Source: a virus. Taken from it: 55,117 bases of DNA. This document shows, piece by piece, positions 3,382 through 29,885 of the stretch; positions within the stretch are counted from its first letter, which is position 1; every line of letters begins with the position of its first letter. Location: IMG/VR virus record IMGVR_UViG_3300020047_002759; one strand, given 5' to 3'. The notes beneath the pieces are model-generated. The model had not been told where the DNA came from, searched no databases, and saw nothing but the letters and a program-made list of their open reading frames with translations. The position numbers and the translations under genes were made by a program.

Positions 3382-4358
3382 TGGGCATGTTTCAAGGCGA
3401 TCCCTTACCAAATATAACGACGGTCAAGACGTCGCAAGACACTGCGCCTCAGTACCTGACCGACTACCAGCAAGACGTCATAAACCTCGGAAAAAACGCC
3501 GTTGAACAAGGTGGCGTGGCTGGGCTGTCGCCGTTGACTCAGCAGGCCATCAACATGGCCCCACAGGCCGCATTTGCAGGCGCAAGCAGTGCTGGCACAG
3601 GGCAAGACCTTTTGACCCAAGCTGGGTACACAGGGTCAAATCAGATTGTTGAAAACTACATGAATCCATACACAAAAAATGTGGTGGATGAGATGGGGCG
3701 GCTTTCATACAAAAACTCCCGCGAGAACGTATTCCCTGCGCTGGACGCCGCATCTATTGGATCAGGCAATTTTGGCTCAGGCCGCATGGCCAACGTAACT
3801 GGGCAAACGCTTGCAGACATTCAAGGTGCTTTGACGGGCCAGCAGTATGGTGCACTGAGCAAAGGTTACACAGATGCCATGAGTGCGGCGTCAAACGACC
3901 TCAACCGTTCGGTGCAAGCTGGCTCTGCTCTTAATCAAACAGCCCAAACGCAAAATCAAATTGGCACAACTGGTCTCAAAACCATGACCGAATTAGGTGG
4001 CCTTGCGCAAGCAAACGAGCAGGCTAAGCTAGATTACCCAATGAGTCAGGCAACAAAGTTTTCACAGCTAATGCAGGGCCAATACACGCCCGTAGGGAAG
4101 ACGTCCTCTGACACAAGCCCCGGCTCCGCTGGCCAGTACGGCAACAGCGGTCTACAAGACATGATTGCGCTGTACGCCCTGTACCAAGCAATCAACGATC
4201 CAAAAACCAAGCCATCTGAACTGTCAGGACTTATTAACCCACCCAATAAGGCTGAGGGTGGCTCTATCACTTCAACGGGTTCAGAAGTTCCCGAGGGCGC
4301 TGTTTTTTATGATGAAGACGGCAATTTTTATGACGCCGAAGGCAACCTAATAGGATAA
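3381..4358 (+). CDS. Internal virion protein, function unknown
   Basis: 325-aa ORF whose ATG overlaps the upstream stop (TAATG). It is Gln/Gly/Ala/Ser-rich and contains 'YMNPYTKNVVDEM' and 'GSGNFGSGRMANV'. Its C-terminus 'NKAEGGSITS...VFYDEDGNFYDAEGNLIG' shares the GG and D..GN motifs of neighbouring proteins. Confidence 0.7.
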   Translation: MGMFQGDPLPNITTVKTSQDTAPQYLTDYQQDVINLGKNAVEQGGVAGLSPLTQQAINMAPQAAFAGASSAGTGQDLLTQAGYTGSNQIVENYMNPYTKNVVDEMGRLSYKNSRENVFPALDAASIGSGNFGSGRMANVTGQTLADIQGALTGQQYGALSKGYTDAMSAASNDLNRSVQAGSALNQTAQTQNQIGTTGLKTMTELGGLAQANEQAKLDYPMSQATKFSQLMQGQYTPVGKTSSDTSPGSAGQYGNSGLQDMIALYALYQAINDPKTKPSELSGLINPPNKAEGGSITSTGSEVPEGAVFYDEDGNFYDAEGNLIG

Positions 4359-4362
4359 AAAA

Positions 4363-16918: not shown

Positions 16919-17773
16919 ATGTACCGTTACAGCAAATCTACCCCTTTCCAAGGCCACCGTTCAAACCAGCCTTTGACCAATGACCAAATTGCTTACTACG
17001 CCCCCAGCGTGGTGGCAGATGGTGCCCATGAGTCCCGTGGTGAGCGCTACACGTTCATCCCCACCATTGCAGTGATCGACGGCCTGCGCCGCGAGGGCTT
17101 CCAGCCCTTTGAGGTTCAGCAGACCCGTGTACGCGACATCAGCAAGCGTGAGCACACCAAGCACATGGTTCGCCTGCGCCACGCCGATGCCGCCGCCTCT
17201 GACGGTGAGGTGGGCGAGATCATCCTGCTCAACAGCCACGACGGTAGCTCCAGCTACCAGTTGTTGTCAGGCTTCTTCCGCTTTGTTTGCAACAACGGCC
17301 TGATTGCTGGTGACGTGACCAACGACATCCGCGTGCGCCACAGTGGCAACGTAGTGGATAACGTTATCGAGGGTGCCACACGTATCCTCGACGACCTGCA
17401 AATCGCCCAAGAGCGCTTGGACACGTTCAAGTCCATCGTCCTGTCTCCTGACGAGCAGACCTTGTTTGCTAACGCCGCCTTGTCCCTCCGCTGGGAGCAA
17501 GACCAAGCCCCTGTAACCGCTGACCGCGTGTTGATCCCTAACCGCTGGGATGACCGCAAGAACGACCTTTGGACAACGTTTAACCGCGTGCAAGAGTCCT
17601 TGGTCAAAGGTGGTGTACATGGACGCGCCAAGACTGGCCGCCGCCTCACCACACGCGCTGTGGCTGGCGTCAACGAGAACGTCAGGCTCAACCGTGCTTT
17701 GTGGTCGCTGGCTGACGGCATGGCTAACTTGAAGCAAAACGTCATTGACATTGAGGAGCTTGTTGCCGCATAA
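16919..17773 (+). CDS. DUF932-family protein (phage/plasmid-associated, function unknown)
   Basis: 'EIILLNSHDGSSSYQLLSGFFRFVCNNGL' is the NSHDGSS hallmark of DUF932. The 284-aa length is typical. Confidence 0.75.
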   Translation: MYRYSKSTPFQGHRSNQPLTNDQIAYYAPSVVADGAHESRGERYTFIPTIAVIDGLRREGFQPFEVQQTRVRDISKREHTKHMVRLRHADAAASDGEVGEIILLNSHDGSSSYQLLSGFFRFVCNNGLIAGDVTNDIRVRHSGNVVDNVIEGATRILDDLQIAQERLDTFKSIVLSPDEQTLFANAALSLRWEQDQAPVTADRVLIPNRWDDRKNDLWTTFNRVQESLVKGGVHGRAKTGRRLTTRAVAGVNENVRLNRALWSLADGMANLKQNVIDIEELVAA

Positions 17774-17786
17774 GTCAAGGTCAAAA

Positions 17787-17811
17787 GGTAGGGGGCTTTT
17801 GCCCCCTTACC
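17787..17811 (+). terminator. Hairpin terminator after the DUF932 gene
   Basis: GGTAGGGGGC-TTTT-GCCCCCTTACC forms a GC-rich stem with one bulge. The trailing U-tract is weak (CTACTTATTG). Confidence 0.55.
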
Positions 17812-17852
17812 TACTTATTGCCGAAAATATATTTATTTATTTGTAAACCAGC

Positions 17853-17884
17853 GTCAACCAATTCGGTTTAAAATGCGTTATAGT
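17853..17884 (+). promoter_or_regulatory. GTCAAC-N17-CGTT promoter-like element, copy C
   Basis: GTCAACCAATTCGGTTTAAAATGCGTTATAGT is followed by ATGGTCTCAAGACAA. Confidence 0.55.
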
Positions 17885-17908
17885 ATGGTCTCAAGACAAT
17901 TTAACAAC

Positions 17909-17916
17909 CAACAGCG
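17909..17916 (+). promoter_or_regulatory. CAACAGCG 5'-UTR box (copy C), 13 nt before the start codon
   Basis: 'aaCCAACAGCGaacaaggagcgatATG'. Confidence 0.4.
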
Positions 17917-17929
17917 AACAAGGAGCGAT

Positions 17930-18817
17930 ATGACTACAGCAACAAATTTTCTCAGCGACATGGCTGATGACTTGGGTGCAATTTACGCATCTAAGCCCGT
18001 GGCCGCCGCAACCAGCGAAGTGACTTACTTCGAGCAAGCTTGCCCTAAGTGCAGGGGCACTGGCCGCTTTTCCTTCGGTTACATCAACGTCCAAAGTGGC
18101 GAGTGCTTTGCTTGCAAAGGCAAGGGCAAGCTGTCTTTCAAAACCTCTCCTGCCACCCGTGCCAAGGCAAAGGCTGGCGCACAACGCCGCGTAACCGCCA
18201 AGGCTGATGCCCAAGCCACTAAAGCCGCTGAATGGAAAATTGCTAACCCTGCTGAAACAGCGTGGATGGAGTCCAGCGCAGAGCGCTTTGAGTTTGCCCG
18301 CGCTATGCTTGACGCTCTCACCAAATACGGCTCATTGACTGAAAAGCAGTTTGCTACAGTTCAGCGCCTGACCGTGCAGGACGTCGAGCGCAAAGCCAAC
18401 CGCGTTGTGGAGCAAGCCGCTCGCGCCACGTCAGCCCCTGTCGTGACCGTTGAGGCTATCGAGGTGGCATTCAACACCGCCAAGCAAGCTGGGGTTAAGC
18501 ACCCCAAATTGCGCCTTGATACTTTTGTTTTCAGCCCCGCTGGCGAGGCAAGCGCAAACGCTGGTGCCATCTACATCAAAAACAAAGAAGATGGCGTGTA
18601 CTTGGGCAAGGTTATGAACGGTCGCCTCTTCACATCACGCGACTGCACCACAGAGGCGGCAGAGCGCATTGTGGCGGTCTCCAGCGACCCCAAGCAAGCC
18701 GCCATAGCCTACGGCATGAAATTCGGCGCTTGCGCCATCTGTGGCCGTGCATTGACTGACAGCGACAGCATTGCTCGCGGCATTGGCCCCATCTGCGCAG
18801 AATATTACAACTTTTAA
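17930..18817 (+). CDS. Protein with a DnaJ-type CxxCxGxG zinc finger and a C-terminal DUF6011-like motif
   Basis: It contains 'CPKCRGTGR...CFACKGKGK' and a C-terminal 'CAICGRALTDSDSIARGIGPICAEY'. The start is ATG 17930 (AAGGAGCG upstream). The tracked start 17873 lies inside promoter repeat C. Confidence 0.7.
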   Translation: MTTATNFLSDMADDLGAIYASKPVAAATSEVTYFEQACPKCRGTGRFSFGYINVQSGECFACKGKGKLSFKTSPATRAKAKAGAQRRVTAKADAQATKAAEWKIANPAETAWMESSAERFEFARAMLDALTKYGSLTEKQFATVQRLTVQDVERKANRVVEQAARATSAPVVTVEAIEVAFNTAKQAGVKHPKLRLDTFVFSPAGEASANAGAIYIKNKEDGVYLGKVMNGRLFTSRDCTTEAAERIVAVSSDPKQAAIAYGMKFGACAICGRALTDSDSIARGIGPICAEYYNF

Positions 18818-19046: not shown

Positions 19047-19069
19047 ACCACCGCTAACGTCAAATGTTC

Positions 19070-19099
19070 TTGCATAAGAAGAATAAAAAGTAGTAAAAT
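19070..19099 (+). promoter_or_regulatory. Sigma70-like promoter candidate upstream of the packaging/late genes (TTGCAT-N18-TAAAAT)
   Basis: TTGCAT is at 19070-19075 and TAAAAT at 19094-19099, in the 85-nt gap before terS. Confidence 0.45.
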
Positions 19100-19131
19100 C
19101 AGGCACTGCAACCTACCTCGGAATAGGGATC

Positions 19132-19710
19132 ATGCCTGAAACGTCAGCATCACAGCCAAGGGCCGCTAAGCCACGCAAGGTGGCCGTCTCCGCGCCCGCC
19201 AAAAAAACCCAAACGGTAAAACGCCCAAGAAACGTCAGCACATATGATCCCGATGTAGCAAGGGTGATATGCGAACACCTGAGTGAGGGAATACCGTTAA
19301 GACAGATATGCAGAGAGAACGAAGGCTTCCCAGCTTGGAGGACGGTTTACGATTGGATGGGGCGCGACCCCGAACTGGCCGCATCAATCGCACGCGCACG
19401 CGACATTGGCTATGACGCTATCGCTGAGGAATGCTTGCAGATTGCTGACACCGTGGCTTTTGGTCAGAAGCAGGTGATGACTGATGAGGGCACCGCCACC
19501 ACCATCGAGGACATGCTCGGGCACCGCAAGCTTCAGATTGAGACCCGCCTCAAGCTCTTGGCCAAGTTCCACCCCACCAAGTACGGCGAGAAGATCGGCG
19601 TGCATGGCGTGGCAGGCCAGCCCCCTGTATCCACTGAGGACACTGGCGTCACCCGCCTCTTCGAGTTACTGCGCAACGCTGAGCTAAAGACCCGTGCTGG
19701 ATCTGCTTGA
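19132..19710 (+). CDS. terS: Terminase small subunit
   Basis: The pattern 'VARVICEHLSEGIPLRQICRENEGFPAWRTVYDWM...ASIARARDIGYDAIAEECLQIAD...KLQIETRLKLLAKFHPTKYGEK' is typical of HTH-type TerS. It sits immediately upstream of, and overlaps, TerL. Confidence 0.7.
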   Translation: MPETSASQPRAAKPRKVAVSAPAKKTQTVKRPRNVSTYDPDVARVICEHLSEGIPLRQICRENEGFPAWRTVYDWMGRDPELAASIARARDIGYDAIAEECLQIADTVAFGQKQVMTDEGTATTIEDMLGHRKLQIETRLKLLAKFHPTKYGEKIGVHGVAGQPPVSTEDTGVTRLFELLRNAELKTRAGSA

Positions 19711-21115
19711 CGCTGAGACGGCAACCGCGTTCGCGGGCCTTGGGCCCCTTGACCGCCTAGCCATGATCAAGCACATGGAGTGGGTGAACAAAGCCCACCC
19801 CTATCAGATCCCGCCTGACCTACAACAAGATTGGACAGTATGGCTTCTCCTCGCAGGGCGTGGAGCGGGCAAGAGCCACGCAGGGAGCCACGCCCTGTGG
19901 TGGTGGTGCTGGACGCACCCCAACTCACGCGGGCTCGTCCTAGCCCCCACCAGCAACGACGTCAAGTTCACCTGCTTCGAGGGAGTGTCGGGCCTAATTG
20001 CCAACATCCCTCGGGAGCTTGTGGCCAACTACAACAAGCAGGATCACGTCATTGACCTTGTCAATGGCTCAAGCATCAGGGGCATCAGCGCAGACTCGTA
20101 TGAGCGCCTACGCGGCCCTCAGTTCCACTTCGCATGGTGTGATGAGCTTGCGGCCTTTCAGTACCTGCAAGACGCGTGGGACATGATGATGTTCGGTCTG
20201 CGCCTTGGTGAACAGCCAAGGGTGATAGCCACGACAACGCCCAAGCCCAAGGACTTGATCATTGACCTTGTGGGCCGCGAGGGTGACGACGTGGTGGTAG
20301 ACCGCGCCAGCACCTACGCCAACATGGCCAACCTTGCACCGAGCTTTGCCAACCAGCTAGAGCAGTACAGGGGCACCAAGCTCTATGACCAAGAGGTGAT
20401 GGGCCAACTCGTTGACCTCGAGGATGGCAAGGTGGTCAGCCGCGACATGTTTGAGCTATGGCCAGCGTTCACCGCCGACGGGCACCCTAACCCGTTCCCT
20501 GACTTTGAGTTCATTGTGATGTCGCTGGACTGTGCGTTCAGCGAGAAGACCCACAACGACCCAACAGCCTGCACCGTGTGGGGCGTGTTCAAGCCACTGG
20601 ACGGCCCCATGTCTGTCCTGCTCATCGACGCATGGGCTGAGCACCTGAGCTTCCCTGACCTCAAGCCAAGGGTCATTGACGAGTTCTACACCAGCTACGG
20701 CGAGGGCAAGAAGGCGAAGAAGCCTGACCTGATGATCATCGAGGACAAGGCGGCAGGCATCAGTCTTATACAAGAGTTGGCAAGGGCGGGGTTACCGTGC
20801 AGGGCGTACAACCCGGGTCGCGCCGACAAGATGCAGAGGCTACAGATCTCTGCCGCCGTCATTGCCGCTGGGCGTGTGTGGCTCCCCGAGAGTGAGACCC
20901 GACCCAACATGGTCAAGACGTGGGCCGAGGGCTTCCTGTCTCAGATCTGCTCATTCCCTGACTCCGCGCACGACGACTACGTCGACACCACCACGCAGGT
21001 GCTCCGCATCTTGAAGGACATGGGCTGGCTCGACATCGACCCACCTCCTCTGTATGATGACGACGATTACGCAGACGACTACAAACCTAAGAGGGTGAAC
21101 CCCTATGCGGCATAA
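19694..21115 (+). CDS. terL: Terminase large subunit
   Basis: It has Walker A 'LLLAGRGAGKS' and Walker B-like 'FHFAWCDELAAF', with a C-terminal nuclease-like region ('FIVMSLDCAFS...IIEDKAAG...DDYVDT'). The GTG start at 19694 is uncertain. Confidence 0.85.
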   Translation: MLDLLDAETATAFAGLGPLDRLAMIKHMEWVNKAHPYQIPPDLQQDWTVWLLLAGRGAGKSHAGSHALWWWCWTHPNSRGLVLAPTSNDVKFTCFEGVSGLIANIPRELVANYNKQDHVIDLVNGSSIRGISADSYERLRGPQFHFAWCDELAAFQYLQDAWDMMMFGLRLGEQPRVIATTTPKPKDLIIDLVGREGDDVVVDRASTYANMANLAPSFANQLEQYRGTKLYDQEVMGQLVDLEDGKVVSRDMFELWPAFTADGHPNPFPDFEFIVMSLDCAFSEKTHNDPTACTVWGVFKPLDGPMSVLLIDAWAEHLSFPDLKPRVIDEFYTSYGEGKKAKKPDLMIIEDKAAGISLIQELARAGLPCRAYNPGRADKMQRLQISAAVIAAGRVWLPESETRPNMVKTWAEGFLSQICSFPDSAHDDYVDTTTQVLRILKDMGWLDIDPPPLYDDDDYADDYKPKRVNPYAA

Positions 21116-21117
21116 CC

Positions 21118-24100
21118 ATGGCTGATCCAAGCAAACTAATCCGAGGGGGCAAAGGGGCTAAGGCCGTGATGTCGCTGGCCGATCAGGTCAGAGCCGAGAT
21201 GGCCGCTGAGAAGGCGGCAACGCGTGCCCGAGGCTTTGGTGTCGCTGGCGAGGACTACGCTGACCCTAAGGTCAAGCCCACCATGAAATTCTCTGAGGCG
21301 CTTGGTAACACTGGCTCCGAGGGCAAGACCCTGAACCTTACTGAGGCTGACCGTTCACGTGTGCAAGGTGAAAACATGGGAGGCGTGGGCTTCTCAGGCT
21401 TACAGCTTTATTCAAAACCACATAGGGACGCCAACGTGTCGTGGGGCTTTGGCAGTGAGGAAATAGCTAAGCGCAAGTCTAAGAATGCCGATCCTGAGAA
21501 GAACGTATTCACAACCTACATTGGCTCACCTGACCAGCACAAGTCCAACAGCATCGTGGTCAGGGAGGCGCTCAAGAACGTGCAAGCGGCCAACAGCCAA
21601 AACCTGATTGACCCTGCGCAAATCAATTTGATAAATAAACGCATACGTGAGGCAAGGAGTAAGAGTGGCACGTTGCTGTTCCAGTCTGACTTTGACGTCA
21701 CCGACCCCCAAGCAATGAGCGCGGCAACCACCTTTGACCGCCGCACTGCTATCAGCAATGCATTGATGGGTATAGGGGTGCAGGGCCCCATGAAAAAGTT
21801 GGACTTTAAAAAAGCCAACCCCAACCTCGAATACAAAGACCCAGCGCAGATGGACAGCATATTGAGGCGTGAGACAGAGCCAATGCTGGAGGGCTTGCCT
21901 AACTACAGCGTGGGCCCGCGCCTGTTCACCTTGGACGGTGGCGTGGTCTACCGACCTGACCTCAACTTTGCTTTCCCTCATCAGACGACTGGCACCGACA
22001 TGGGCGTCATGTTTGAGATGCCAACAATCCGAGAAGCCGCACCTGACTTTATCAAGAAGAAGGGCTACAAACCCAAAGACGTAGTAAACGCACGCGCCAT
22101 GTCCATGGGTGCGCCGACTCAGTTTGTCAGTGAAGAATACTTGACCAACCTACAAAAGATTGGCAGGAAGAAGGGCGGCTTAGCCAGCATGGCCAAGGGC
22201 GGTGCGGCGCGTGGCATCAAGAAGCTCAAGGGTATTTACAACGAGGTAGAGACCAGCATGGGCAGGGGCAAGGGCGCTGACTTTGAGCAGACCGCATCGC
22301 CGCTAAACATCATCAAGGAGACTGGCGGTAATTGGTCACCCTCAGGTGAAATGGTTTACAAGTCTAATCTTGACCGTGAGTTAGAAAAACTTGAAAAGGG
22401 TAGATTTAATCCTAAGAGCAACAACATTAAGCTGATGCTTGAAGATGCTGTAAAAGCAGGCGACGCTCGTCAGGTTGAGGTCTTAACTACAAACTTACGC
22501 AGTGCCATTGGAAATGAAGCCGCCAACAAGTGGGTGCAATCCAACCTCAAGAACTACATCACCAAGCAGATGGCGACCAAGGACGACCCTGTTCGCAAGT
22601 TGGCTGAGGAAGGTATAACGGCGTTTCCTAAGAACGTAGATGAGTATGGTGACGTGGAGTTGCGCACTTATGGAAGCGCTAAGGCAAGGCAAAATCGTAA
22701 AGATACTGGTTATGTTCAAGCTGGAGTTTCTCAATCTCCCTTAGCAAAACATTACGAAACAATGACCGATGAGTCAATTTCTCCAAATATAGCCAAAGAA
22801 TATCAACGAATGCAAAATTTGCCGCCTATGCAAAGACCAGCGGGCGTGATTGATTCGCCTTGGTTACTCAAGCTAGACCCTGAGACGCCTATCTTTTCGT
22901 TAAGCCGAGACGCTGACTTTGACAAGTTGGGCTTTGGTCACATGATGGATGTCTTGCGTGAAGACGTTGCCGCTGGTCGCATTCGTCCTGAGAAGCTGAA
23001 TACGATAAGCATAGAGCAGGCGGTGCGTCGCACGCATGAGTATGACGAGACGCTTAAAGCAAATATGCTCAACGCAAGGATTGCAGAGCAAGCGAACGCA
23101 AATGTATTCAAAGAGTATCCTGAAGGGTACAAGTGGGTGCAGTTAGATCAGCCGGGTCAATTCAACCTTGAATCCGACATTATGGGTCACTCTGTGCGTG
23201 GGTATGAGCCACCCAAAGGTCACCCTGACTACACCGACATATCAGGCGACTCAGGACACGACACCTACGGTCAAGGTGGCTATGAGGCTATTAAGTCAGG
23301 CAGGGCTAAGGTTTATTCATTGCGTGACCCTAAAGGTCAATCGCACGTCACGGTTGAGGTTGGGCAAAATGGGTTGAGAGAACAATTTTTTAAGTTGCCA
23401 CAAAAAGAAAAAGAAAGAATAAATTCTACTTATAAGGGATGGGAATCAAAACTAGGACGTGAACCAACTCCTGAAGAGCATGATTCACAACTGTACAAAA
23501 TAATGTCCGAAATGGGTTATGCGCCTACTGAAAAAATTACCCAAATCAAAGGCAAGCAGAATGCCGCTCCCAATGAATCGTATCAACCGTATGTGCAAGA
23601 CTTTGTAAAGAGCGGAAATTGGTCTGACGTTGGCGACCTTGATAATACTGGGCTTGTAAGGATTTATGCTGAAAGTGAATTAGCGCAAACTCTTGGTAAA
23701 AAAGGCTTGCCTGTTCCAAAATATGCCAGTCAAGATGAAGTTTCTGAATTGTTGAAGCAAGCTGAAGTAGGCTCTTACAGAGATGCAAGTAAAGGCAAAA
23801 CTTGGATAAATGACGAGCATCCTGATTACAAAACAGACGCCCCTCCCGCAGAAGGCATGGCAAAGGGTGGATTGGCGTACATGGGCAAAGGCGGTGCCGC
23901 TAAGGGTGCCAAAAAAATAATGAGTCTTGCAGATCAGGTCAGGGCTGAAATGGCGGCAGAAAAGCAGTACGGCCAAATCAGTGGCATGGTGTCCAAGGTG
24001 GGCGAGGAGGGTCGCTCACCCATCATCCCAGTGCCCAACCGCTGGTTTCTGCAACCTGACAAGTTCCCCAACCAACAAAAGTTGATTGAGCGCGTCCTGC

Positions 24101-24660
24101 AACAGACTGGCATGAGGCGCGAGGACTTTCCCTCAGGCGCGTTCATCGACCCACGCACTGGCGATGTGCTTGACTCCCGCATCATGGACGACTTGGGCGT
24201 GGTCATCAACCCAGCAACCAACCGCCCCATGATGTCAGCCAAGGGTCAGTCAGGCCTTGAGGTGCTTGACCCCAAGACTGGCTCATACACCAAGAGCAAC
24301 TTGGTGCGCAAGGGCCTGTTCAAGCCCGAGGGCGGCGACCCAATACTCAACGACATGAGCTTTATTGCAACGATTGAGAAGGGTGACGTTGGTCACAAGT
24401 ACGGCTTGGCCACCGAGTACGCCAGCCCCACAGAATTGTTTAACACAAACACTGGTGCAAACCCAACGCTACGCCCAAGGAGTAGGGGCGACTTGTTTGG
24501 TGTGGGTGACGTGGTTGGCCAAGTCCGCATCGGCAAAAGCAATCCGCATGACGTGTACGAGAAGCTGTTTGTTGCGCCCAAGGGCTCTGATGTGCAAGGC
24601 AAAAAATTGAGCAAAGCCAAGGGTGGCTTAGCCCTGACATTACAAAGAAAGGCGGCTTAG
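21118..24660 (+). CDS. 1180-aa polyprotein-like multi-module virion protein (function unknown; the middle module may be PcfJ-like)
   Basis: Three unrelated modules are separated by 'RKKGGLASMAKGGAARGIKKLKG' (22165-22233) and 'MAKGGLAYMGKGGAAKGAKKI' (23857-23919). The leader 'MSLADQVRAEMAAEK' is present at 21169-21213 and at 23920-23964. The middle module contains 'GYKWVQLD...ESDIMGHSVRGY...KVYSLRDPKGQSHVTVEV...ITQIKGKQNAAP'. Confidence 0.8.
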   Translation: MADPSKLIRGGKGAKAVMSLADQVRAEMAAEKAATRARGFGVAGEDYADPKVKPTMKFSEALGNTGSEGKTLNLTEADRSRVQGENMGGVGFSGLQLYSKPHRDANVSWGFGSEEIAKRKSKNADPEKNVFTTYIGSPDQHKSNSIVVREALKNVQAANSQNLIDPAQINLINKRIREARSKSGTLLFQSDFDVTDPQAMSAATTFDRRTAISNALMGIGVQGPMKKLDFKKANPNLEYKDPAQMDSILRRETEPMLEGLPNYSVGPRLFTLDGGVVYRPDLNFAFPHQTTGTDMGVMFEMPTIREAAPDFIKKKGYKPKDVVNARAMSMGAPTQFVSEEYLTNLQKIGRKKGGLASMAKGGAARGIKKLKGIYNEVETSMGRGKGADFEQTASPLNIIKETGGNWSPSGEMVYKSNLDRELEKLEKGRFNPKSNNIKLMLEDAVKAGDARQVEVLTTNLRSAIGNEAANKWVQSNLKNYITKQMATKDDPVRKLAEEGITAFPKNVDEYGDVELRTYGSAKARQNRKDTGYVQAGVSQSPLAKHYETMTDESISPNIAKEYQRMQNLPPMQRPAGVIDSPWLLKLDPETPIFSLSRDADFDKLGFGHMMDVLREDVAAGRIRPEKLNTISIEQAVRRTHEYDETLKANMLNARIAEQANANVFKEYPEGYKWVQLDQPGQFNLESDIMGHSVRGYEPPKGHPDYTDISGDSGHDTYGQGGYEAIKSGRAKVYSLRDPKGQSHVTVEVGQNGLREQFFKLPQKEKERINSTYKGWESKLGREPTPEEHDSQLYKIMSEMGYAPTEKITQIKGKQNAAPNESYQPYVQDFVKSGNWSDVGDLDNTGLVRIYAESELAQTLGKKGLPVPKYASQDEVSELLKQAEVGSYRDASKGKTWINDEHPDYKTDAPPAEGMAKGGLAYMGKGGAAKGAKKIMSLADQVRAEMAAEKQYGQISGMVSKVGEEGRSPIIPVPNRWFLQPDKFPNQQKLIERVLQQTGMRREDFPSGAFIDPRTGDVLDSRIMDDLGVVINPATNRPMMSAKGQSGLEVLDPKTGSYTKSNLVRKGLFKPEGGDPILNDMSFIATIEKGDVGHKYGLATEYASPTELFNTNTGANPTLRPRSRGDLFGVGDVVGQVRIGKSNPHDVYEKLFVAPKGSDVQGKKLSKAKGGLALTLQRKAA

Positions 24661-24661
24661 T

Positions 24662-26419
24662 GTGAAACACCACGACTTATTGCACTCATGGGGTCACAGC
24701 AAGCTGGCTCGGCATATGGCAAGGGGCGGCATCGCTGAAGAGTTTGACGCAAACGCCCCCGACGAAGGCGATGAAGGCTCAGGCGCTGAGGCTCTTCGCC
24801 AAGAGTTGAATGAGATTACTAATAATTTTCCTAAGCCAACACCCAAGCCGTCAATGAGCATGGGTGGCAACGTGCGACGCTTTGATGGTGGTGGCTTTGT
24901 CGATCCTATGGGTGCCCCCTCCTCCGAGGTGGAGCCTGAGGATGCTGAGTTCATGCGCCGATTGGCCAAGAAGATTGCCCAAGCAACTGGCAAAGAGATC
25001 AAGCAACTTGCTACGCCTCGCGGGGCTAAGGACTTCACAGCCAACAGCATTGCCGCCACCTTGGCAGGGGGTACATCGGACATAGTGAACTTTGGCTTGC
25101 AAGGCGTTGATTATTTGCGAGAGCAAGCCGCAAAACAAAACAAGCGAGGCTACAAACGCGAATCGGTCATGGGTGGCGACATGGTTCCCCCAAAGGTTGA
25201 GCCATACGCAAGCGACAAGCCGTTCATGGGTTCCGATCAATTCCGCGATGCGTTTGAGCGGCAAGGGGTAACTTCAAAGGGAAGCCAAGAACAATTTCCA
25301 ATATTGGGCATGATTCCTGAGACGATTCTTAACCCAGTGGGGCCGCTGTCAGCAATAAAAGCCGCGCCAGCAATTTACAAGGGAGCCAAGACCGTGGTGG
25401 AAGAGGGTTTGCCCCGCGCCGCTGAGATGGGTGCCAACCGCGTGGTAAGCGACGTGCGCCGCCCATTTACGCCAGCAACATTTCCAACTGAGGCGACGGC
25501 CCCTGACCTTGGCCAAGGCACGTCCTATGGATTCAGGCAAGGCCTGAACGATAGGTTGTTGGCAAACCCCAAGCTTGGCACAGGCAAGGTCAAGGCAAGG
25601 GAAGGTCAAGGCACTTATGTAAACACAAAGGGAGAGCTTGAACTCAACCCTTTGCAAGCTATTGATGTGCCAAGGGCTGGCAATATTGGCGAGGGGCCAA
25701 AAGCCAACCAAAAATTGCGTCAACAGATTGCCCAAATGGGTGTTGATTTAAATCAAGAGGCTATGGCTGGCCACCGTTTTTTGCCCATGGCAACAAACAA
25801 CATTAAGGACGCATCAGCCATGTTGATCAAAACCAAAGAAGGGCTGAGCAAAGATCAAATTGCTGACCTTGCAAGGGCGCTTGGCGGCGATATGGTTGTG
25901 AGCCACAACCCCAAGCTAGGCGGTGTTGTAGTGTTCCCGTTTGGCCCTGTTACAAAAGGCAAAATACCAAGCGAGTTTCTTGCGGCACAAAGCGCGGCTA
26001 GCAAAGTGCTTGGCAAAGATGCAAAAATTCAATACGGTAAATCTGACTTTGAAAAAGACAGGCTGTTTAGGGACAAGTCACAATACAAAGACGCAGGCGC
26101 TACCTCAATGTCGGCAGAGCAACAGGCGTTGCGTGGCAAGTTACAGGGCGTGGAAAAGTTTATGTTCCCTGAGAGCGTCTCGGGCATCCCCGGCTCTGTG
26201 AAAGCCGCCCCAATGGGCGGTCTGCAACCTTGGTCTCGTGGTGCCGATTACCCAACTAGCGTGATTGGAATTGGGAACGGAGAAAAAGTAGAGTACCAGC
26301 CAGTAAATTTTTTAACTTCCGCAGAGGGGAAGCGTTATCCAAATTATCGGGAGGCTGAAAAAGAACGCGGACAGATGCTTGATGATTACCATAGAACCTT
26401 TCCCTCCAAAGCGCGTTAA
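24662..26419 (+). CDS. Large virion-associated protein, function unknown
   Basis: 585-aa ORF directly after the 1180-aa gene. The GTG start is uncertain (alternative ATG at 24716, 'MARGGIAEEF'). It contains 'MSMGGNVRRFDGGGFVDPMG'. Confidence 0.7.
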   Translation: MKHHDLLHSWGHSKLARHMARGGIAEEFDANAPDEGDEGSGAEALRQELNEITNNFPKPTPKPSMSMGGNVRRFDGGGFVDPMGAPSSEVEPEDAEFMRRLAKKIAQATGKEIKQLATPRGAKDFTANSIAATLAGGTSDIVNFGLQGVDYLREQAAKQNKRGYKRESVMGGDMVPPKVEPYASDKPFMGSDQFRDAFERQGVTSKGSQEQFPILGMIPETILNPVGPLSAIKAAPAIYKGAKTVVEEGLPRAAEMGANRVVSDVRRPFTPATFPTEATAPDLGQGTSYGFRQGLNDRLLANPKLGTGKVKAREGQGTYVNTKGELELNPLQAIDVPRAGNIGEGPKANQKLRQQIAQMGVDLNQEAMAGHRFLPMATNNIKDASAMLIKTKEGLSKDQIADLARALGGDMVVSHNPKLGGVVVFPFGPVTKGKIPSEFLAAQSAASKVLGKDAKIQYGKSDFEKDRLFRDKSQYKDAGATSMSAEQQALRGKLQGVEKFMFPESVSGIPGSVKAAPMGGLQPWSRGADYPTSVIGIGNGEKVEYQPVNFLTSAEGKRYPNYREAEKERGQMLDDYHRTFPSKAR

Positions 26420-26576: not shown

Positions 26577-26624
26577 TGAGCAAGCGTCTTATTTCAAGAC
26601 AAAGTGTAACACAGGATTAAACAT

Positions 26625-29099
26625 ATGGCTACCGAAATGCCCATTGAACAAGATTATGGACGCAACATTGATGGCGTACAAGCAACAGATGAGGACATGA
26701 TTGTTGACGTCCCTGATATGGGCGACTCAGATATTGAGGAAACTCCTGATGGTGGCGCAATTGTCACCATGCCTGATGACTTCAAGGGCCCGTCCGACGA
26801 CACTGACTTTTATGAAAACTTGGCTGAGACGGTCAACTTGATAGACCTTAGCAAGCTAACGACGCGCTACATCGACATGCTGGACAAGGACAAACAGGCG
26901 CGAAAGAAGAGGGACAAGCAGTACGAGGACGGGATCAAAAGGACGGGACTAGGGGATGAGGCCCCGGGCGGTGCTAACTTCATGGGCGCAAGCCGCGTTG
27001 TCCACCCCGTCATGGCCGAGGTCTGCGTTGACTTTGCCGCCAGCGCCATCAAAGAGTTGTTCCCACCCGATGGCCCAGTGCGCACCAACATCCTTGGTGA
27101 AGTAACCGATGAGAAGACCGAGGTTGCCGAGCGCAAGCGCGACTATATGAATTGGCAGTTAACCGAGCAGATCCCTGAGTTCAGGGATGAGACAGAGCAA
27201 CTGCTTACCCAGCTACCCCTTGGTGGCTCACAGTACATGAAGCTATGGTTTGATGAGAAGCTTCGCCGCCCCTGCGCTGAGTTCATCCCCATTGACAACA
27301 TCTTGTTGCCCTTTGCCGCCGCAAACTTTTACTCCGCACAACGCGTTTCTGAAATTCAAGACATTAGTGAGTGGGAGTTTGACAACCGCATCAAGGCTGG
27401 CCTGTACCGAGACATCAGCTACATCCGCGCCAGCGCGGAACCTGAGGAGAGCGGCCCACAAAAAGCCACAAACGAGATTGAGGGCCGTGAAAGCGATGAG
27501 AACGATGACGGTTTGCGCCGCGTTTTTCACATCTACACATGGCTTGAGCTTGAGGATGACGGCTTTTCCGAGGGTGAGATGGCTCCCTACATCCTGATGA
27601 TCGACGAGACCGACAACAAAGTGCTTGGTCTGTACCGAAATTGGGAGATGGGCGACAAAACCATGGACAAGTTGGACTGGATTGTCGAGTTCAAGTTCAT
27701 TCCATGGCGTGGCGCATACGCAATTGGCTTGCCGCACCTCATTGGCGGGCTGTCGGCGGCGCTTACAGGCGCTTTGCGGGCGCTGTTGGACACTGCACAC
27801 GTCAACAACTCGCTGACGATGTTGAAGCTCAAGGGTGGGCGCAACAGTGGACAGACGCAACAGCCCGAAATGACGCAGGTCACGGAGATTGAGGCCGCGC
27901 CGGGCATTGACGACATCCGCAAAATCGCCATGCCCATGCCATTCAACCCCCCAAGCCCCGTTTTGTTCGAGCTTTTGGGTTGGTTGGACAACGCCGCCAA
28001 GGGCGTCGTCAGCACCGCCGAGGAAAAGATTGCGGACATGAATGCCAACATGCCCGTGGGCACCACGCAAGCCCTGATTGAGCAAGGAGCCAAGGTATTT
28101 AGCTCCATCCACGCCCGTTTGCATGACTCACAGCGCCGCGTTCTTGGCGTTTTGGGCCGCATCAACCGCTGGTACTTGGATGATCAGAAAAAAGGCGACA
28201 TGGTTGCCGATTTGGCCGTCACCAAGGCTGATTTTGAACGCAACACCGACGTTGTGCCCGTATCTGACCCCCACATCTTCTCCGAAACCCAGCGTATGGC
28301 CCAAAGCCAAGCTGTTTTGGCGCTTATGGAGAAGTATCCCCAAGAGTTCAACTCAAAAGCCGTGCTTGGGCGCATCCTGAAGCAAATGAAGGTGCCAAAT
28401 ATCTCGGAGTTGATGCCAGCGGCGGCAAAACCCGAAGAATTGGATGCCGCCAACGAGAACGCGGCCATGGCATTGGGCAAGCCAGCCTTTGCGTACCCAC
28501 GCCAAGACCAGTTGGCGCACATTCAGACTCACTTGAACTTTGCGGTTGACCCAATCATGGGATCCAACCCAATGATTGCTCAGGTCTACATCCCGCAGGC
28601 CTTGGAGCACATCAAGCAACACATGATGCTGTGGTACACAAACCAAATGACCACCTACGTCACTGGTGGAACAGATATCACGCTTCAAAAGTACGAGAAG
28701 AACAAGCTGGCCAGCACGGTTGACAAGGCTGTGGCGCTTGCGTCTGATCACGTCAAGATTGATACGGCCAAGACCTTTGAAAAGGTTGTACCAATACTTC
28801 AACAGCTTGGCGAAATGATGGCTCAGTTTGCTCCAAAGCCACCAGTGGATCCCGAGTCCCAAGCCGTGTTGCAGGCGTCTATGGCAGAGACCCAGCGCCG
28901 CGCCGCACGCGACGGGGTGGAGATGGAACTCAAGAAGAAGGATCAAGAAATCGACGTGGCTATGAATGTCGAAAAACTCTTGACACAAGAACGCATGAAA
29001 ACCGCAGACCTCAGCGTAGAGGAAGCAAAGCTCAAGCGGGAGCAAGAGCGAACAGTGCTTGACCTAAATCAAGCGACACAACGTAACTTAGGAGAGTAA
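26625..29099 (+). CDS. Portal protein (putative)
   Basis: 824 aa at the head of the head-morphogenesis block. It has a very acidic N-terminus and a long C-terminal charged helix ('...ELKKKDQEIDVAMNVEKLLTQERMKTADLSVEEAKLKREQERTVLDL') reminiscent of P22-type portal barrels. The call rests on size, position and composition. Confidence 0.65.
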   Translation: MATEMPIEQDYGRNIDGVQATDEDMIVDVPDMGDSDIEETPDGGAIVTMPDDFKGPSDDTDFYENLAETVNLIDLSKLTTRYIDMLDKDKQARKKRDKQYEDGIKRTGLGDEAPGGANFMGASRVVHPVMAEVCVDFAASAIKELFPPDGPVRTNILGEVTDEKTEVAERKRDYMNWQLTEQIPEFRDETEQLLTQLPLGGSQYMKLWFDEKLRRPCAEFIPIDNILLPFAAANFYSAQRVSEIQDISEWEFDNRIKAGLYRDISYIRASAEPEESGPQKATNEIEGRESDENDDGLRRVFHIYTWLELEDDGFSEGEMAPYILMIDETDNKVLGLYRNWEMGDKTMDKLDWIVEFKFIPWRGAYAIGLPHLIGGLSAALTGALRALLDTAHVNNSLTMLKLKGGRNSGQTQQPEMTQVTEIEAAPGIDDIRKIAMPMPFNPPSPVLFELLGWLDNAAKGVVSTAEEKIADMNANMPVGTTQALIEQGAKVFSSIHARLHDSQRRVLGVLGRINRWYLDDQKKGDMVADLAVTKADFERNTDVVPVSDPHIFSETQRMAQSQAVLALMEKYPQEFNSKAVLGRILKQMKVPNISELMPAAAKPEELDAANENAAMALGKPAFAYPRQDQLAHIQTHLNFAVDPIMGSNPMIAQVYIPQALEHIKQHMMLWYTNQMTTYVTGGTDITLQKYEKNKLASTVDKAVALASDHVKIDTAKTFEKVVPILQQLGEMMAQFAPKPPVDPESQAVLQASMAETQRRAARDGVEMELKKKDQEIDVAMNVEKLLTQERMKTADLSVEEAKLKREQERTVLDLNQATQRNLGE

Positions 29100-29102
29100 A
29101 AA

Positions 29103-29276: not shown

Positions 29277-29458
29277 TGCGTTTAATCAATGACCTCATAA
29301 GCGCTGTAAAAGCGCGTCAGACAGAGATCAGGTACTCGTTGGCTGATGGCAACGCCATCAACTTTGAGTCCTATCAACGAATGGTGGGTCAATACTCAGG
29401 ATTGCAGGAGTCGTTAGACATCCTTGATAACTTAATGAAAGAAAAAGACGATGAGTGA
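29276..29458 (+). CDS. Hypothetical small protein
   Basis: 60-aa helical ORF, translationally coupled on both sides. Confidence 0.55.
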   Translation: MRLINDLISAVKARQTEIRYSLADGNAINFESYQRMVGQYSGLQESLDILDNLMKEKDDE

Positions 29459-29885
29459 AAGCACGGTAGCGGGTAATGCCGCTGATTTACGGGAAGCATT
29501 TCCTGTTGTAGACCCCGGAGCGCGTCCACTTGGTGCAAGAGTTTTAGTACAACTGCGCCGTACAAAGAAGACTGTGACTGCAAGCGGGATTGTTTTGGTT
29601 GAAGAAACTAGAGAAACCGAAAAGTGGCAAAACATGGTTGGCAAAGTCATCGAGCTTGGCCCCCTTGCCTTTCGCAAACGCGACAGCATGGAACCATGGG
29701 TAGAGGGCGTTTGGTGCCAAGTTGGCGACTACATCCGCGTCCCCAAATGGGGCGGTGATCGCTGGGAAGTGCCATTACCCAATGCCGCAAGAGACGAAGA
29801 CCCCATCCTGTTTATGGTGCTCAATGACCACGAAGTCATTGCCTCCATTACGGGCGACCCACTTGCAGTGAAGGCCTTTATATGA
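29451..29885 (+). CDS. GroES/Cpn10-like co-chaperonin
   Basis: 'ARPLGARVLVQLRRTKKTVTASGIVLVEETRE...MVGKVIELGP...QVGDYIRVPKWGG...VLNDHEVIASI' follows the GroES pattern (RPLGDRVLV...T.GGI.L...G.V.AVG...V..GD.V...D.DILA.I). Confidence 0.6.
   Translation: MSESTVAGNAADLREAFPVVDPGARPLGARVLVQLRRTKKTVTASGIVLVEETRETEKWQNMVGKVIELGPLAFRKRDSMEPWVEGVWCQVGDYIRVPKWGGDRWEVPLPNAARDEDPILFMVLNDHEVIASITGDPLAVKAFI

What the first reader, a model, noticed from the sequence alone, without database searches (positions are those of the whole stretch)
21118..24660. 1180-aa polyprotein-like ORF inserted between TerL and portal, with a duplicated 15-aa leader recoded synonymously
TerL is normally followed closely by the portal gene. 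Here 5.3 kb (this ORF plus 24662..26419) intervenes.
The ORF reads as three unrelated modules joined by near-identical linkers: 'RKKGGLASMAKGGAARGIKKLKG' and 'MAKGGLAYMGKGGAAKGAKKI'. It ends with 'KAKGGLALTLQRKAA'.
The N-terminal peptide 'GGKGAKAVMSLADQVRAEMAAEK' reappears at residue ~925 as 'GGAAKGAKKIMSLADQVRAEMAAEK'. The 15 residues MSLADQVRAEMAAEK are identical, but 9 of the 15 codons differ: atgtcgctggccgatcaggtcagagccgagatggccgctgagaag versus atgagtcttgcagatcaggtcagggctgaaatggcggcagaaaag. That pattern indicates selection on the peptide rather than a recent DNA duplication.
This is what would be expected if modules 1 and 3 each carry the same targeting/propeptide sequence and the protein is processed at the GG linkers. 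T4 internal proteins similarly carry a cleavable capsid-targeting sequence.
The middle module is visibly AT-richer (for example 23380-23830). It contains 'GYKWVQLD..ESDIMGHSVRGY..KVYSLRDPKGQSHVTVEV..ITQIKGKQNAAP', which resembles the PcfJ-like domain seen in injected 'polyvalent proteins' of phages and conjugative elements.
Basis: partly seen in the sequence, partly recalled or inferred. Interest (0 to 1): 0.75.

Follow-up and report, generated by a model that had tools for sequence, protein, structure and literature searches.

The report
Shuffled multi-cargo phage protein with junction motif
This is a real, large phage gene built like beads on a string: independent cargo modules, probably delivered into the host with the DNA, joined by a strongly conserved short junction peptide at which related phages swap, delete and split modules. 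Whether the protein is cut at these junctions is still untested.

Summary
ORF 21118..24660 (1180 aa) lies between TerL and the portal. It has three modules, near-identical Gly-Gly linkers, and an exact 15-aa repeat that differs in 9 of 15 codons.

It belongs to a large, uncultured family of phage polyvalent (multi-effector) proteins:
- M2 is PcfJ-like. Orthologues also carry ART-PolyVal, ParB or LPD23 modules.
- M1, M3 and the downstream ORF 24662..26419 (M4) match no known family.

- **Junction motif.** Every module boundary carries the core GG-x-[VAI]-H-M-x-x-GG. It occurs 127 times in 81 of 178 homologues, against 0.6 expected.
- **Shuffling at junctions.** Modules occur in permuted orders, and DNA identity breakpoints fall on the junctions. 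In this window M2 is a swapped, low-GC allele. A 1351-nt deletion removed two modules (X14 and ART) and produced the odd "LTLQRKAA*" tail.
- **M4 split.** M4 is the C-terminal module of the same protein in other phages. Here it has been split off in the middle of a junction.

Cleavage at the linkers and a T4-like targeting role remain unsupported. No protease was found, and the leader occurs in no other protein of this phage. Purifying selection on the peptide is clear.

Verdict: a new variant of a known kind, of moderate interest.

The parts
19694..21115 (+). Large terminase (context, left border of the locus)
   Evidence: Pfam Terminase_6N 5e-22 and Terminase_6C. PHROG terminase large subunit.
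21118..24660 (+). Polyvalent protein gene, part 1 (1180 aa: M1 - junction - M2 - junction - M3 - half-junction - scar)
   Evidence: ORF. 235 homologues found. A 99 % identical 1180-aa protein, P0001, is seen on other contigs.
21145..21213 (+). N-terminal tag: GGKGAKAV plus leader copy 1 (MSLADQVRAEMAAEK, 21169-21213)
   Evidence: DNA identity to L001 (90 %) ends at 21220. Predicted helix aa 20-37.
21214..22161 (+). Module M1 (aa 33-348), unknown family; widespread among the homologues and found at any position
   Evidence: No Pfam, PHROG or NCBIfam hit. Only aa ~140-250 are confidently folded.
22162..22272 (+). Junction 1 (aa 349-385; core KKGGLASMAKGG at 22174-22203; then ARGIKKLKGIYNEVETSM)
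   Evidence: It forms an island of 88.6 % DNA identity to L001 (22174-22313) between unrelated flanks.
22273..23853 (+). Module M2 (aa 386-912), PcfJ-like, low-GC3 swapped allele; signature MGHSVRGYE...SLRDPKGQSHVTVE at 23182-23358
   Evidence: pLDDT 60-90 over aa 397-884.
23854..23964 (+). Junction 2 (aa 913-949; core AKGGLAYMGKGG at 23866-23895; basic stretch; leader copy 2 at 23920-23964)
   Evidence: High identity to L001 and L005 starts at 23880, inside the core.
23965..24612 (+). Module M3 (aa 950-1165), unknown enzyme-like family; 92-96 % identical in the closest relatives
   Evidence: 96 cluster representatives, at any position or stand-alone. Invariant R, D, N, E, H, H residues.
24613..24633 (+). 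First half of junction 3 (KAKGGLA), left edge of the deletion
   Evidence: Identity to L001 and L005 ends at 24632.
24633..24665 (+). Deletion scar. In another frame this reads (S)PDITKKGGLV*, the ancestral end of the gene, with TGA overlapping the next start. In the ORF's frame it reads LTLQRKAA*. The same DNA also carries the Shine-Dalgarno sequence for the next gene.
   Evidence: 1351 nt of L001, 13342-14692, are missing; Shine-Dalgarno dG -7.1.
24662..26419 (+). Polyvalent protein gene, part 2 (585 aa, module M4), split off in mid-junction. Conserved N-terminal peptide at 24662-24712, second half-junction HMARGG at 24713-24730, M4n ~24779-25411, M4c ~25412-26416.
   Evidence: Fused as the C-terminal module in P0075, P0101, P0071, P0097 and others. 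Stand-alone homologues have the conserved N-terminus MKHyDLLxSWGHxKLxKHMAKGG. The C-terminal domain aa 270-500 folds confidently.
26625..29099 (+). Portal (context, right border of the locus)
   Evidence: phrog_1216. tblastn to portals of Caulobacter, Roseobacter and Pelagibacter podophages.

Best explanation
ORF 21118..24660 and ORF 24662..26419 together form the polyvalent (multi-effector) protein locus of an uncultured podovirus-like phage (inferred from its ejection and internal virion genes). It occupies an accessory slot between TerL and the portal.

**Architecture.** The product is a string of independently folding cargo modules: M1 (unknown), M2 (PcfJ-like), M3 (unknown, enzyme-like) and M4 (a separate gene here). 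Each cargo carries an N-terminal tag (H-M-x-K-G-G, a basic stretch, then a short amphipathic helix such as MSLADQVRAEMAAEK) and a C-terminal tag (K-x-G-G-L-[V/A]). When two cargos are fused, the tags meet to form the junction GG-x-[VAI]-H-M-x-x-GG.

**Shown here**
- The junction is conserved at every module boundary across a large family.
- Modules occur in permuted orders, and M2, M3 and M4 also occur as separate genes.
- Exchange, deletion and gene fission all happen at the junctions.
- In this window, M2 is a replaced allele of lower GC.
- A 1351-nt frame-shifting deletion removed the X14 and ART-PolyVal modules and left a scar.
- M4 was split off by a short stop/restart insert inside a junction.
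- The junction and leader peptides are under purifying selection as peptides.

**Inferred**
- The protein is packaged in the capsid and ejected with the DNA to act early against host functions or defences. This rests on its position in the head module and on precedent for this class.
- The tags are a per-cargo docking or packaging element and flexible spacer. Their conservation also makes them the crossover points for cassette shuffling between co-infecting relatives.
- I treat covalent cleavage at the junctions as possible but not required.
For: - **Module permutation and mosaicism**: for example, against P0002 the identities are M1 87 %, M2 29-33 %, M3 93 %.
- **Junction motif:** 127 observed against 0.6 expected; logo and instances.
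- **DNA breakpoints** at 21220, 22174-22313, 23880 and 24632|24633. Amino-acid change-points cluster at aa 15-33, 349-403, 929-934 and 1173.
- **Low GC3 of M2**.
- **Deletion scar and split junction**.
- **M4** is fused in other phages and stand-alone in the window's clade, with a conserved HMAKGG.
- **M3** is stand-alone in another phage's head module.
- **Peptide selection:** pS 0.7-1.0 with the peptide conserved, and orthologous copies share codons.
- **Fold:** AlphaFold2 shows no fold across the borders.
- **Class assignment:** PcfJ and ART-PolyVal in orthologues, and BFVD PcfJ-like proteins at E 2e-25.
- **Conserved synteny:** TerS-TerL-polyvalent-(M4)-portal.
- **Accessory nature:** the gene is absent from Caulobacter phage RW.
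- **Precedent for packaging:** Iyer et al. 2017 (PMC5512222). phi24B gp47, a 2811-aa polyvalent protein, was detected in virions by mass spectrometry (bioRxiv 10.64898/2026.04.10.717836).
- **Junction-like motifs at true protein ends:** ...QGGLTAMAR* directly before the portal gene, and ...KKGGLV*. This argues that the motif is more than a passive hinge.
Against: - No experimental or proteomic data exist for this phage group, so packaging and injection rest on gene position and analogy.
- The window protein itself has no Pfam hit.
- M1 and M3 are poorly modelled (pLDDT < 50), so hidden activities, including a peptidase, cannot be excluded.
- The docking partner of the tags is unknown.
- The conserved KKGGLV* end overlaps the ribosome-binding site of the next gene, so part of its conservation may act at the DNA level.
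- Breakpoints were mapped at DNA level on only three related contigs.
Confidence: 0.65

Rival explanations
1. True polyprotein. A phage or host protease cuts within each GG-x-[VAI]-H-M-x-x-GG junction and releases the modules. Each module then uses its leader helix as a capsid-targeting or propeptide signal, as in the T4 internal proteins.
For: - A conserved motif sits at every boundary, flanked by flexible glycines.
- Natural gene ends mimic cut products: 18 proteins end at ...GGL[V/A], and stand-alone M4 keeps HMAKGG behind a 17-aa N-terminal extension.
- Recurrent crossovers, the deletion and the gene fission all fall between GGL[V/A] and HM.
- Modules work both fused and separate.
- Some polyvalent proteins are known to be processed, for example P1 DdrB and DarA (Iyer 2017).
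Against: - No protease was recognised in the head module or among the modules by Pfam, PHROGs or NCBIfam.
- The same portal-to-MCP gene set is present in Caulobacter phage RW, which lacks the polyvalent gene.
- The leader and junction profile hits no other ORF of the phage.
- No single module is universal in the family, so none can be the family's autoprotease.
- The motif also occurs at true C-termini, where nothing needs releasing.
Confidence: 0.2
2. The junctions are internal translation start sites. The K-G-G codons (AAR-GGN-GGN) act as Shine-Dalgarno sequences and the conserved Met is a start codon, so nested N-terminally truncated products are made.
For: - Junction and leader ATGs have Shine-Dalgarno-like upstream sequence (mean dG -6.7 kcal/mol), against -2.35 +/- 2.25 for 241 other internal ATGs. 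This is comparable to real starts.
- Met is strongly conserved at the core position (118 of 154).
- Some database gene calls start at MAKGG.
Against: - There is no bias towards GGA (GGAGG). The first Gly is GGC in 7 of 8 cases, matching background usage.
- The preceding residue varies among K, Q and H.
- The GG after the Met is equally conserved, which a start site would not require.
- In the split M4 gene the upstream KGG is lost but HM-x-x-GG is kept, 17 codons inside the protein.
- Internal starts would give co-terminal products, not separate modules.
Confidence: 0.05
3. The protein is a structural ejection or conduit protein (tape-measure-like or T7 gp15/16-like), not a carrier of effectors. 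On this view the Gly-Gly motifs are hinges shared with other internal virion proteins.
For: - Looser versions of the motif (K-x-GG-x4-M-x-x-GG, KKGG, YAxGG) recur in ORF 34030..35973 and ORF 409..3381 of this phage, and in the equivalents of ORF 34030..35973 in relatives.
- The phi24B authors propose a conduit role for their polyvalent protein.
Against: - The locus is accessory and highly variable in content and length. It is absent in Caulobacter phage RW and ranges from about 800 to over 2000 aa elsewhere.
- Its modules include enzymes typical of conflict systems: ART-PolyVal, ParB-like and GDSL lipase.
- The phage already has dedicated ejection proteins at 3381..8039.
Confidence: 0.08
4. 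Artefact: a mis-assembled or decaying fusion of three genes (a pseudogene).
For: The tail is a frame-shift scar, and one effector module has been lost.
Against: - The same 1180-aa ORF is seen on independent contigs (P0001: 8 member sequences, 2 contigs).
- At least ten orthologues have the collinear architecture M1-M2-M3-ART.
- M3 is 92-96 % conserved.
- The reading frame is intact over 3.5 kb.
Confidence: 0.02

Closest known systems
Polyvalent proteins of phages and conjugative elements (Iyer, Burroughs, Anand, de Souza, Aravind 2017, J Bacteriol; PMC5512222)
   Same: Both are large multi-domain proteins encoded next to the terminase and portal genes. The family carries ART-PolyVal, LPD23 and ParB-like modules, and shows extensive domain shuffling. 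Packaging in the capsid and delivery into the host are predicted.
   Different: The window copy has none of the named signature domains left; ART was deleted. Three of its four modules are unannotated. The family uses a uniform junction peptide (GG-x-[VAI]-H-M-x-x-GG plus a leader helix) at every boundary, a feature that paper does not describe (0 occurrences of 'linker' or 'glycine'). No MuF or peptidase module is present.
phi24B gp47 (2811-aa polyvalent protein found in virions by mass spectrometry; bioRxiv 10.64898/2026.04.10.717836)
   Same: It is a podovirus protein of the polyvalent class. It is abundant in particles but absent from the ordered density, so it is thought to be an encapsidated ejection protein.
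   Different: It has different domains (LPD1/5/38 and a MuF-C metallopeptidase) and shows no detected sequence relation. No junction motif is reported for it.
MuF polymorphic toxins / SPP1 gp7 (Jamet et al. 2017, BMC Biol; PMC5576092)
   Same: These are head-module proteins carrying variable toxin or effector domains, with cassette-like variability.
   Different: MuF genes lie immediately downstream of the portal and have a MuF anchor domain. Here the gene is upstream of the portal, has no MuF domain, and carries several cargos in variable order instead of one C-terminal toxin.
Demarcating motifs of polymorphic toxins (CdiA VENN, Rhs PxxxxDPxGL) - from my own knowledge, not checked here
   Same: These are short conserved peptides at the border of variable cassettes. 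They provide homology for cassette exchange and, in Rhs, mark a self-cleavage site.
   Different: They differ in sequence, in the secretion systems involved, and in having a single border per protein. Here the motif is repeated at every boundary, and cleavage is unproven.
T4 internal proteins with capsid-targeting sequence; P1 Dar proteins
   Same: Both are cargo proteins packed into heads through N-terminal signals. They have anti-restriction roles, and some are proteolytically processed.
   Different: The T4 capsid-targeting sequence is shared by several proteins and removed by the gp21 protease at LxE. Here no protease is found, the leader is confined to this gene family, and it occurs internally as well as at the N-terminus.
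PcfJ-like proteins (Pfam PF14284)
   Same: M2 is homologous to annotated phage PcfJ-like proteins. It shares the motifs SLRDxKGxxHxTxE and QIKGKxN.
   Different: The window's allele replaces GHCVGxYC with GHSVRGYE plus a 25-aa insert (24 of 52 family members do the same). It falls below Pfam detection. The function of PcfJ itself is unknown.

Membership tests
Polyvalent proteins (Iyer et al. 2017) | Two or more distinct, independently occurring domains in one polypeptide of a phage or conjugative element | tested here: met
   Three modules occur separately and in other orders elsewhere. AlphaFold2 shows no fold across the borders.
Polyvalent proteins (Iyer et al. 2017) | Presence of signature domains of the class (ART-PolyVal, LPDs, ParB-like, MuF, peptidases and others) | tested here: inconclusive
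   The window protein has no Pfam hit. Orthologues do: ART-PolyVal in 20 of 29, LPD23 and ParB_N in P0047 and P0007. The window lost ART through a 1351-nt deletion.
Polyvalent proteins (Iyer et al. 2017) | Encoded among the portal-terminase packaging genes (phage subset) | tested here: met
   The gene lies directly between TerL and the portal here and in L001, L002, L004 and DSL-LC04.
Polyvalent proteins (Iyer et al. 2017) | Packaged in the virion and delivered to the host | not testable with these tools
   Only precedent is available.
PcfJ-like (PF14284) | Match to the Pfam model above the gathering score | tested here: not met
   The window's M2 has no hit even at E <= 10. Orthologue P0002 scores 26.7 bits against a cut-off of 25. 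23 of 29 orthologues match at E <= 0.01.
PcfJ-like (PF14284) | Homology to proteins annotated as PcfJ-like, and shared core motifs | tested here: met
   tblastn to DSL-LC04 PcfJ-like protein, E 1e-16. Foldseek against BFVD PcfJ-like proteins, E 2e-25. Motifs SLRDPKGQSHVTVE and QIKGKQN are present; the Cys pair is replaced.
MuF / SPP1 gp7 polymorphic toxins | MuF domain (PF04233/PF06152) at the N-terminus | tested here: not met
   No Pfam hit in the window proteins or in 29 orthologues.
MuF / SPP1 gp7 polymorphic toxins | Gene immediately downstream of the portal | tested here: not met
   The gene is upstream of the portal. The definition is taken from PMC5576092.
T4-type capsid-targeting sequence cargo | The same N-terminal signal is shared by several packaged proteins of the phage | tested here: not met
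   The leader and junction HMM and a regular-expression search hit only this ORF across the six-frame translation of the window.
T4-type capsid-targeting sequence cargo | A prohead protease that removes the signal | tested here: not met
   No protease family was detected among the head-module ORFs by PHROGs, NCBIfam or precomputed Pfam. Unannotated 179-aa and 193-aa ORFs remain.
Proteolytically processed viral polyprotein | A conserved site motif at each domain boundary | tested here: met
   GG-x-[VAI]-H-M-x-x-GG is present at the boundaries, 127 observed against 0.6 expected.
Proteolytically processed viral polyprotein | A cognate protease and demonstrated cleavage products | not testable with these tools
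   No protease was identified in silico. Cleavage needs mass spectrometry or western blots.

The most novel reading that the evidence does not exclude
The junction with its leader is a universal cargo handle. On this reading, any protein flanked by H-M-x-K-GG/leader on one side and K-x-GG-L-[V/A] on the other is recognised by one partner (a protease, the portal or the scaffold). It is then loaded into the capsid, released as a separate effector and injected.

That would make this locus a genuine polyprotein of injected effectors in a tailed dsDNA phage. Its processing and packaging signal would also be the recombination joint that lets phages trade effectors like cassettes.
Probability: 0.2. 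Interest if true: 0.8.

Novelty: new variant of a known kind. Interest (0 to 1): 0.55.

Why it matters
Polyvalent proteins are thought to be a main way phages deliver ready-made counter-defence enzymes, yet how they are assembled, packaged and diversified is largely unknown. This family offers an unusually clean case with three features:
- a fixed junction grammar;
- cargo modules that are demonstrably exchanged, deleted and split at that junction;
- four large cargo families, three of them without any annotation.

If the junction proves to be a packaging or processing signal, it would give a testable rule for which proteins are injected. It could also become a handle for loading foreign cargo into phage capsids. 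Even if it is only a connector, it documents intragenic modular recombination at conserved linker sequences inside a single ORF.

Tried and rejected
- **megablast of 19000-30000 against GenBank phages:** no match.
- **Pfam, PHROGs, NCBIfam and PADLOC on the ORF, its separate modules and ORF585:** nothing significant.
- **Profile searches against PDB sequences with A1, A2 and A3:** no hits.
- **Foldseek against PDB:**
  - The ORF1180 model gave nothing significant; the best hit was E 0.14 to ESCO1, a GNAT acetyltransferase.
  - The ORF585 C-domain gave only a weak match to phage SAM lyase 6zm9 (E 0.011, TM 0.44). I treat it as a lead only.
- **Regex splitting with single-linkage clustering of modules:** this chained almost everything into one family. 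I replaced it with mapping of reference modules.
- **The search for related loci in bacterial genomes:** the A1 alignment was too divergent, and A2 found no relatives. No prophage or host clue resulted.
- **Internal translation start hypothesis:** Shine-Dalgarno-like sequences are present, but without codon bias and inconsistent with the split gene.
- **Programmed frameshift joining ORF1180 to ORF585:** rejected. The frame offset differs between the window (+1) and L001 (-1). The stop overlaps the next start in relatives, and the N-terminal extension of M4 is conserved as a peptide.
- **M3 as a prohead protease:** a stand-alone copy sits near an MCP gene, but there is no supporting homology and M3 is not universal in the family.
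- **P0024, an apparent polyvalent-portal fusion:** its portal part is unrelated to this phage's portal and the contig is only 2.2 kb, so I set it aside as a possible chimera.

Full report
**1. Observation**

The ORF is real. 21118..24660 (+) encodes 1180 aa and starts 3 nt after the TerL stop. Upstream lie an Sf6-type small terminase and a T4-type large terminase. The portal is at 26625..29099.

The peptide MSLADQVRAEMAAEK occurs at aa 18-32 and aa 935-949. It is identical in protein but differs in 9 of 15 codons and 11 of 45 nt. The quoted linkers are at aa 349-385, 913-949 and 1166-1172.

GC3 is 0.65 in module 1, 0.435 in module 2 and 0.67 in module 3. Patches in module 2 fall as low as 0.17.

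**2. What family it belongs to**

The whole ORF, and each module alone, hits nothing in Pfam, PHROGs, NCBIfam or PADLOC. The large protein database nevertheless holds 235 relatives. Their recognisable parts are:
- PcfJ (PF14284) and ART-PolyVal (PF18760), found in 23 and 20 of 29 collinear orthologues;
- ParB_N, LPD23 and GDSL lipase.

These are hallmarks of the polyvalent proteins of Iyer et al. 2017 (PMC5512222).

The evidence on M2 is as follows:
- It matches the annotated PcfJ-like protein of the metagenome-assembled phage DSL-LC04 (E 1e-16).
- The AlphaFold2 model matches predicted structures of viral PcfJ-like proteins (Foldseek/BFVD, E 2e-25).
- The window's M2 is a consistent variant allele, not a decayed copy. 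It has GHSVRGYE plus a 25-aa insert in place of GHCVGxYC, as do 24 of 52 family members.

M1, M3 and the downstream ORF have no annotated or solved relatives.

**3. The locus is larger than the finding**

The 585-aa ORF 24662..26419 (M4) is the fused C-terminal module of the polyvalent protein in many phages, for example P0075 aa 1054-1593 and P0101 aa 1084-1599. Its N-terminal half alone ends many others. In the window's own clade it is a separate gene.

Relatives' upstream genes end ...TPEITEKKGGLV*, with the TGA overlapping the GTG start of M4. M4 begins MKHyDLLxSWGHxKLxKHMAKGG. KKGGLV followed by HMAKGG makes a perfect junction. The split therefore looks like a ~17-codon stop/restart insert in the middle of a junction, with both halves still conserved.

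**4. The junction**

Aligning all boundaries shows a general core of GG-x-[VAI]-H-M-x-x-GG. It is usually preceded by A-[K/H/R] and followed by a basic stretch. In the window's subfamily a helix follows, either MSLADQVRAEMAAEK or, before M2, IYNEVETSM.

- The strict core occurs 127 times in 81 of 178 proteins, against 0.62 expected from shuffles.
- Up to five junctions occur in one protein.
- Junction-like sequences also sit at true protein ends...QGGLTAMAR* just before the portal gene, and ...KKGGLV*.
- The second half is retained inside stand-alone M4.

The motif is therefore more than a passive hinge.

**5. Shuffling happens at the junctions**

Reference-module mapping shows modules in many orders: M1-M2-M3-ART, ParB-M3-M2-M4n, ART-M2-M1, X14-M3-?-M1-?-M4c and others.

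Identity to the window is mosaic. Against P0002 it is M1 87 %, M2 29-33 % and M3 93 %. Against P0014 it is M1 28 % and M3 95 %. The window's M2 is closest (65-90 %) to copies in differently built proteins.

DNA identity to related contigs switches on and off at these positions:

| Window position | What it corresponds to |
|---|---|
| 21220 | just after leader 1 |
| 22174-22313 | junction 1, an 88.6 % island between unrelated flanks |
| 22303 | start of homology to the M2 donor type |
| 23880 | inside the core of junction 2 |
| 24632\|24633 | first half of junction 3 |

Amino-acid change-points in 28 orthologues cluster at the same places.

Relative to L001, the window lacks 1351 nt, which carried the X14 and ART-PolyVal modules. 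Because 1351 is not a multiple of 3, the last codons are read out of frame. In another frame this stretch still reads SPDITKKGGLV*, the ancestral gene end, while the ORF's own frame reads LTLQRKAA*. The low GC3 of M2 fits acquisition from a lower-GC relative.

**6. The leader repeat**

- Paralogous leader copies within one gene are saturated at synonymous sites (pS 0.7-1.0), yet almost identical as peptides.
- Orthologous copies at the same junction in different phages share codon choices.
- Each leader therefore travels with its downstream module and is kept by purifying selection on the peptide.
- Stand-alone M3 homologues of 233-247 aa have no GG junction. They keep a similar N-terminal helix (...L[A/G]DAVRR...) before the conserved VPVPNRWF.
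- One such gene lies two genes upstream of a major head protein in an unrelated phage-like contig.

**7. Structure**

For ORF1180 (29-sequence alignment, mean pLDDT 53.9), AlphaFold2 folds M2 (aa 397-884) and part of M1 (aa 140-250) with confidence. Both junction regions (aa 314-396 and 885-971) are below pLDDT 50, with short helices at the leaders. No fold spans a border.

M3 and the N-terminal part of M1 are poorly modelled. For M3 this is probably because the alignment is shallow (its copies are 92-96 % identical), though intrinsic disorder is not excluded; for M1 I did not establish the cause.

ORF585 has a confident alpha/beta C-terminal domain (aa 270-500). It shows only a weak resemblance to phage SAM lyase (E 0.011), which I regard as a lead and not a finding.

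**8. Mechanism**

*Shown:* modular architecture, a conserved junction, exchange, deletion and fission at junctions, and peptide-level selection.

*Inferred:* capsid packaging and injection. The grounds are:
- The gene sits in the packaging module in every relative examined.
- It is accessory there, being absent from Caulobacter phage RW.
- The class is predicted to be packaged, and phi24B gp47 has now been observed in virions by mass spectrometry.

*Not shown:* cleavage.
- No protease is recognisable.
- The portal-to-MCP gene set is the same in a relative without the locus.
- No module is universal.
- The leader and junction profile is found in no other ORF of the phage.

I rate processing at about 0.2.

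I also tested an internal-start rival. Junction ATGs do have Shine-Dalgarno-like upstream sequence. However, there is no GGA bias and the preceding codon varies. The split M4 gene keeps HM-x-x-GG without the upstream KGG.

**9. Comparison and novelty**

The object is a member of the polyvalent-protein class in architecture and context, and M2 is PcfJ-like by homology.
- It is not a MuF toxin: it has no MuF domain and lies on the wrong side of the portal.
- It does not meet the tests for a T4-type capsid-targeting system.

To my knowledge the following are new:
- the uniform junction grammar, which the class-defining paper does not mention;
- direct evidence that the junctions are the joints for cassette exchange, deletion and gene fission;
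- three sizeable unannotated cargo families.

I classify it as a new variant of a known kind, with interest of about 0.55.

Noticed in passing
window 34030..35973 (+): This 647-aa low-complexity ORF, two genes downstream of the MCP, has no family hit. It is packed with KKGG, YA[T/Y]GG and Y-K-x-GG-x4-M-x-x-GG repeats, plus DPDRRGGNRPRP repeats. Its equivalent in L002 keeps KKGGxVKKMxxGG. This is a looser cousin of the junction motif in another probable virion protein.
   Followed up: partly
window 409..3381 (+): This 990-aa ORF has acidic tandem repeats (NAGGYEAxDxxGNLxxVxxDGSxxLxES) and two junction-like motifs (YKRGGQVQQMKKGGLPHF and QNGGLQMRRGGLPHL). Its C-terminal motif DDIPAMLADGEYVIDSDVVAALGNG hits tape-measure PHROGs weakly. 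It precedes the ejection and internal virion protein genes at 3381..8039.
   Followed up: partly
window 29451..29885 (+): A GroES/Cpn10-like gene (phrog_3188) lies shortly after the portal. It is conserved at the same place in L002, L004, DSL-LC04, Caulobacter phage RW and MW202545.
   Followed up: partly
window 25412..26416 (+) (C-terminal domain of ORF585): The confident alpha/beta domain shows a weak Foldseek resemblance to phage SAM lyase (6zm9, E 0.011, TM 0.44 over 111 columns). SAM lyase is an anti-restriction enzyme. The match is too weak to call.
   Followed up: partly
window 23365..23560 (aa ~750-812 of the ORF): This is a sub-mosaic inside M2. A helical insert has the lowest GC3 (0.17-0.35) and is unrelated even to the otherwise closest M2 alleles (P0013, P0011, P0036).
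   Followed up: partly
L008 (Caulobacter phage RW, MK929790) 2445..5247: The large terminase is annotated in two pieces separated by a SAM-dependent methyltransferase gene. A tRNA-Val occupies the TerL-portal gap where this window has the polyvalent locus.
   Followed up: no
P0024 (649 aa, 2.2-kb contig): This looks like an in-frame fusion of M3, truncated M2 and an SU10-type portal N-terminus (Pfam SU10_portal, 1.6e-44). The portal part is unrelated to this window's portal. It may be a real portal fusion of the kind Iyer et al. describe, or an assembly chimera.
   Followed up: partly
P0205, P0210, P0229 etc.; P0253, P0255, P0256: Other conserved C-terminal tails occur in the family. One clade has K-x-GG-[I/V]-THAHHL[D/E]IEERPL*. 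Stand-alone M3 proteins have LLRY[G/S]LLAP.... These suggest alternative terminal signals.
   Followed up: no
window 16919..18817 (+): A DUF932-family protein (phrog_12094, 9e-97) and a 314-aa ORF with a CxxC...CxxC zinc-ribbon-like N-terminus lie just upstream of the terminase genes. In relatives, genes with Pfam DUF932 (L001) or DUF6011 (L002, L004) lie upstream of the terminase genes.
   Followed up: no
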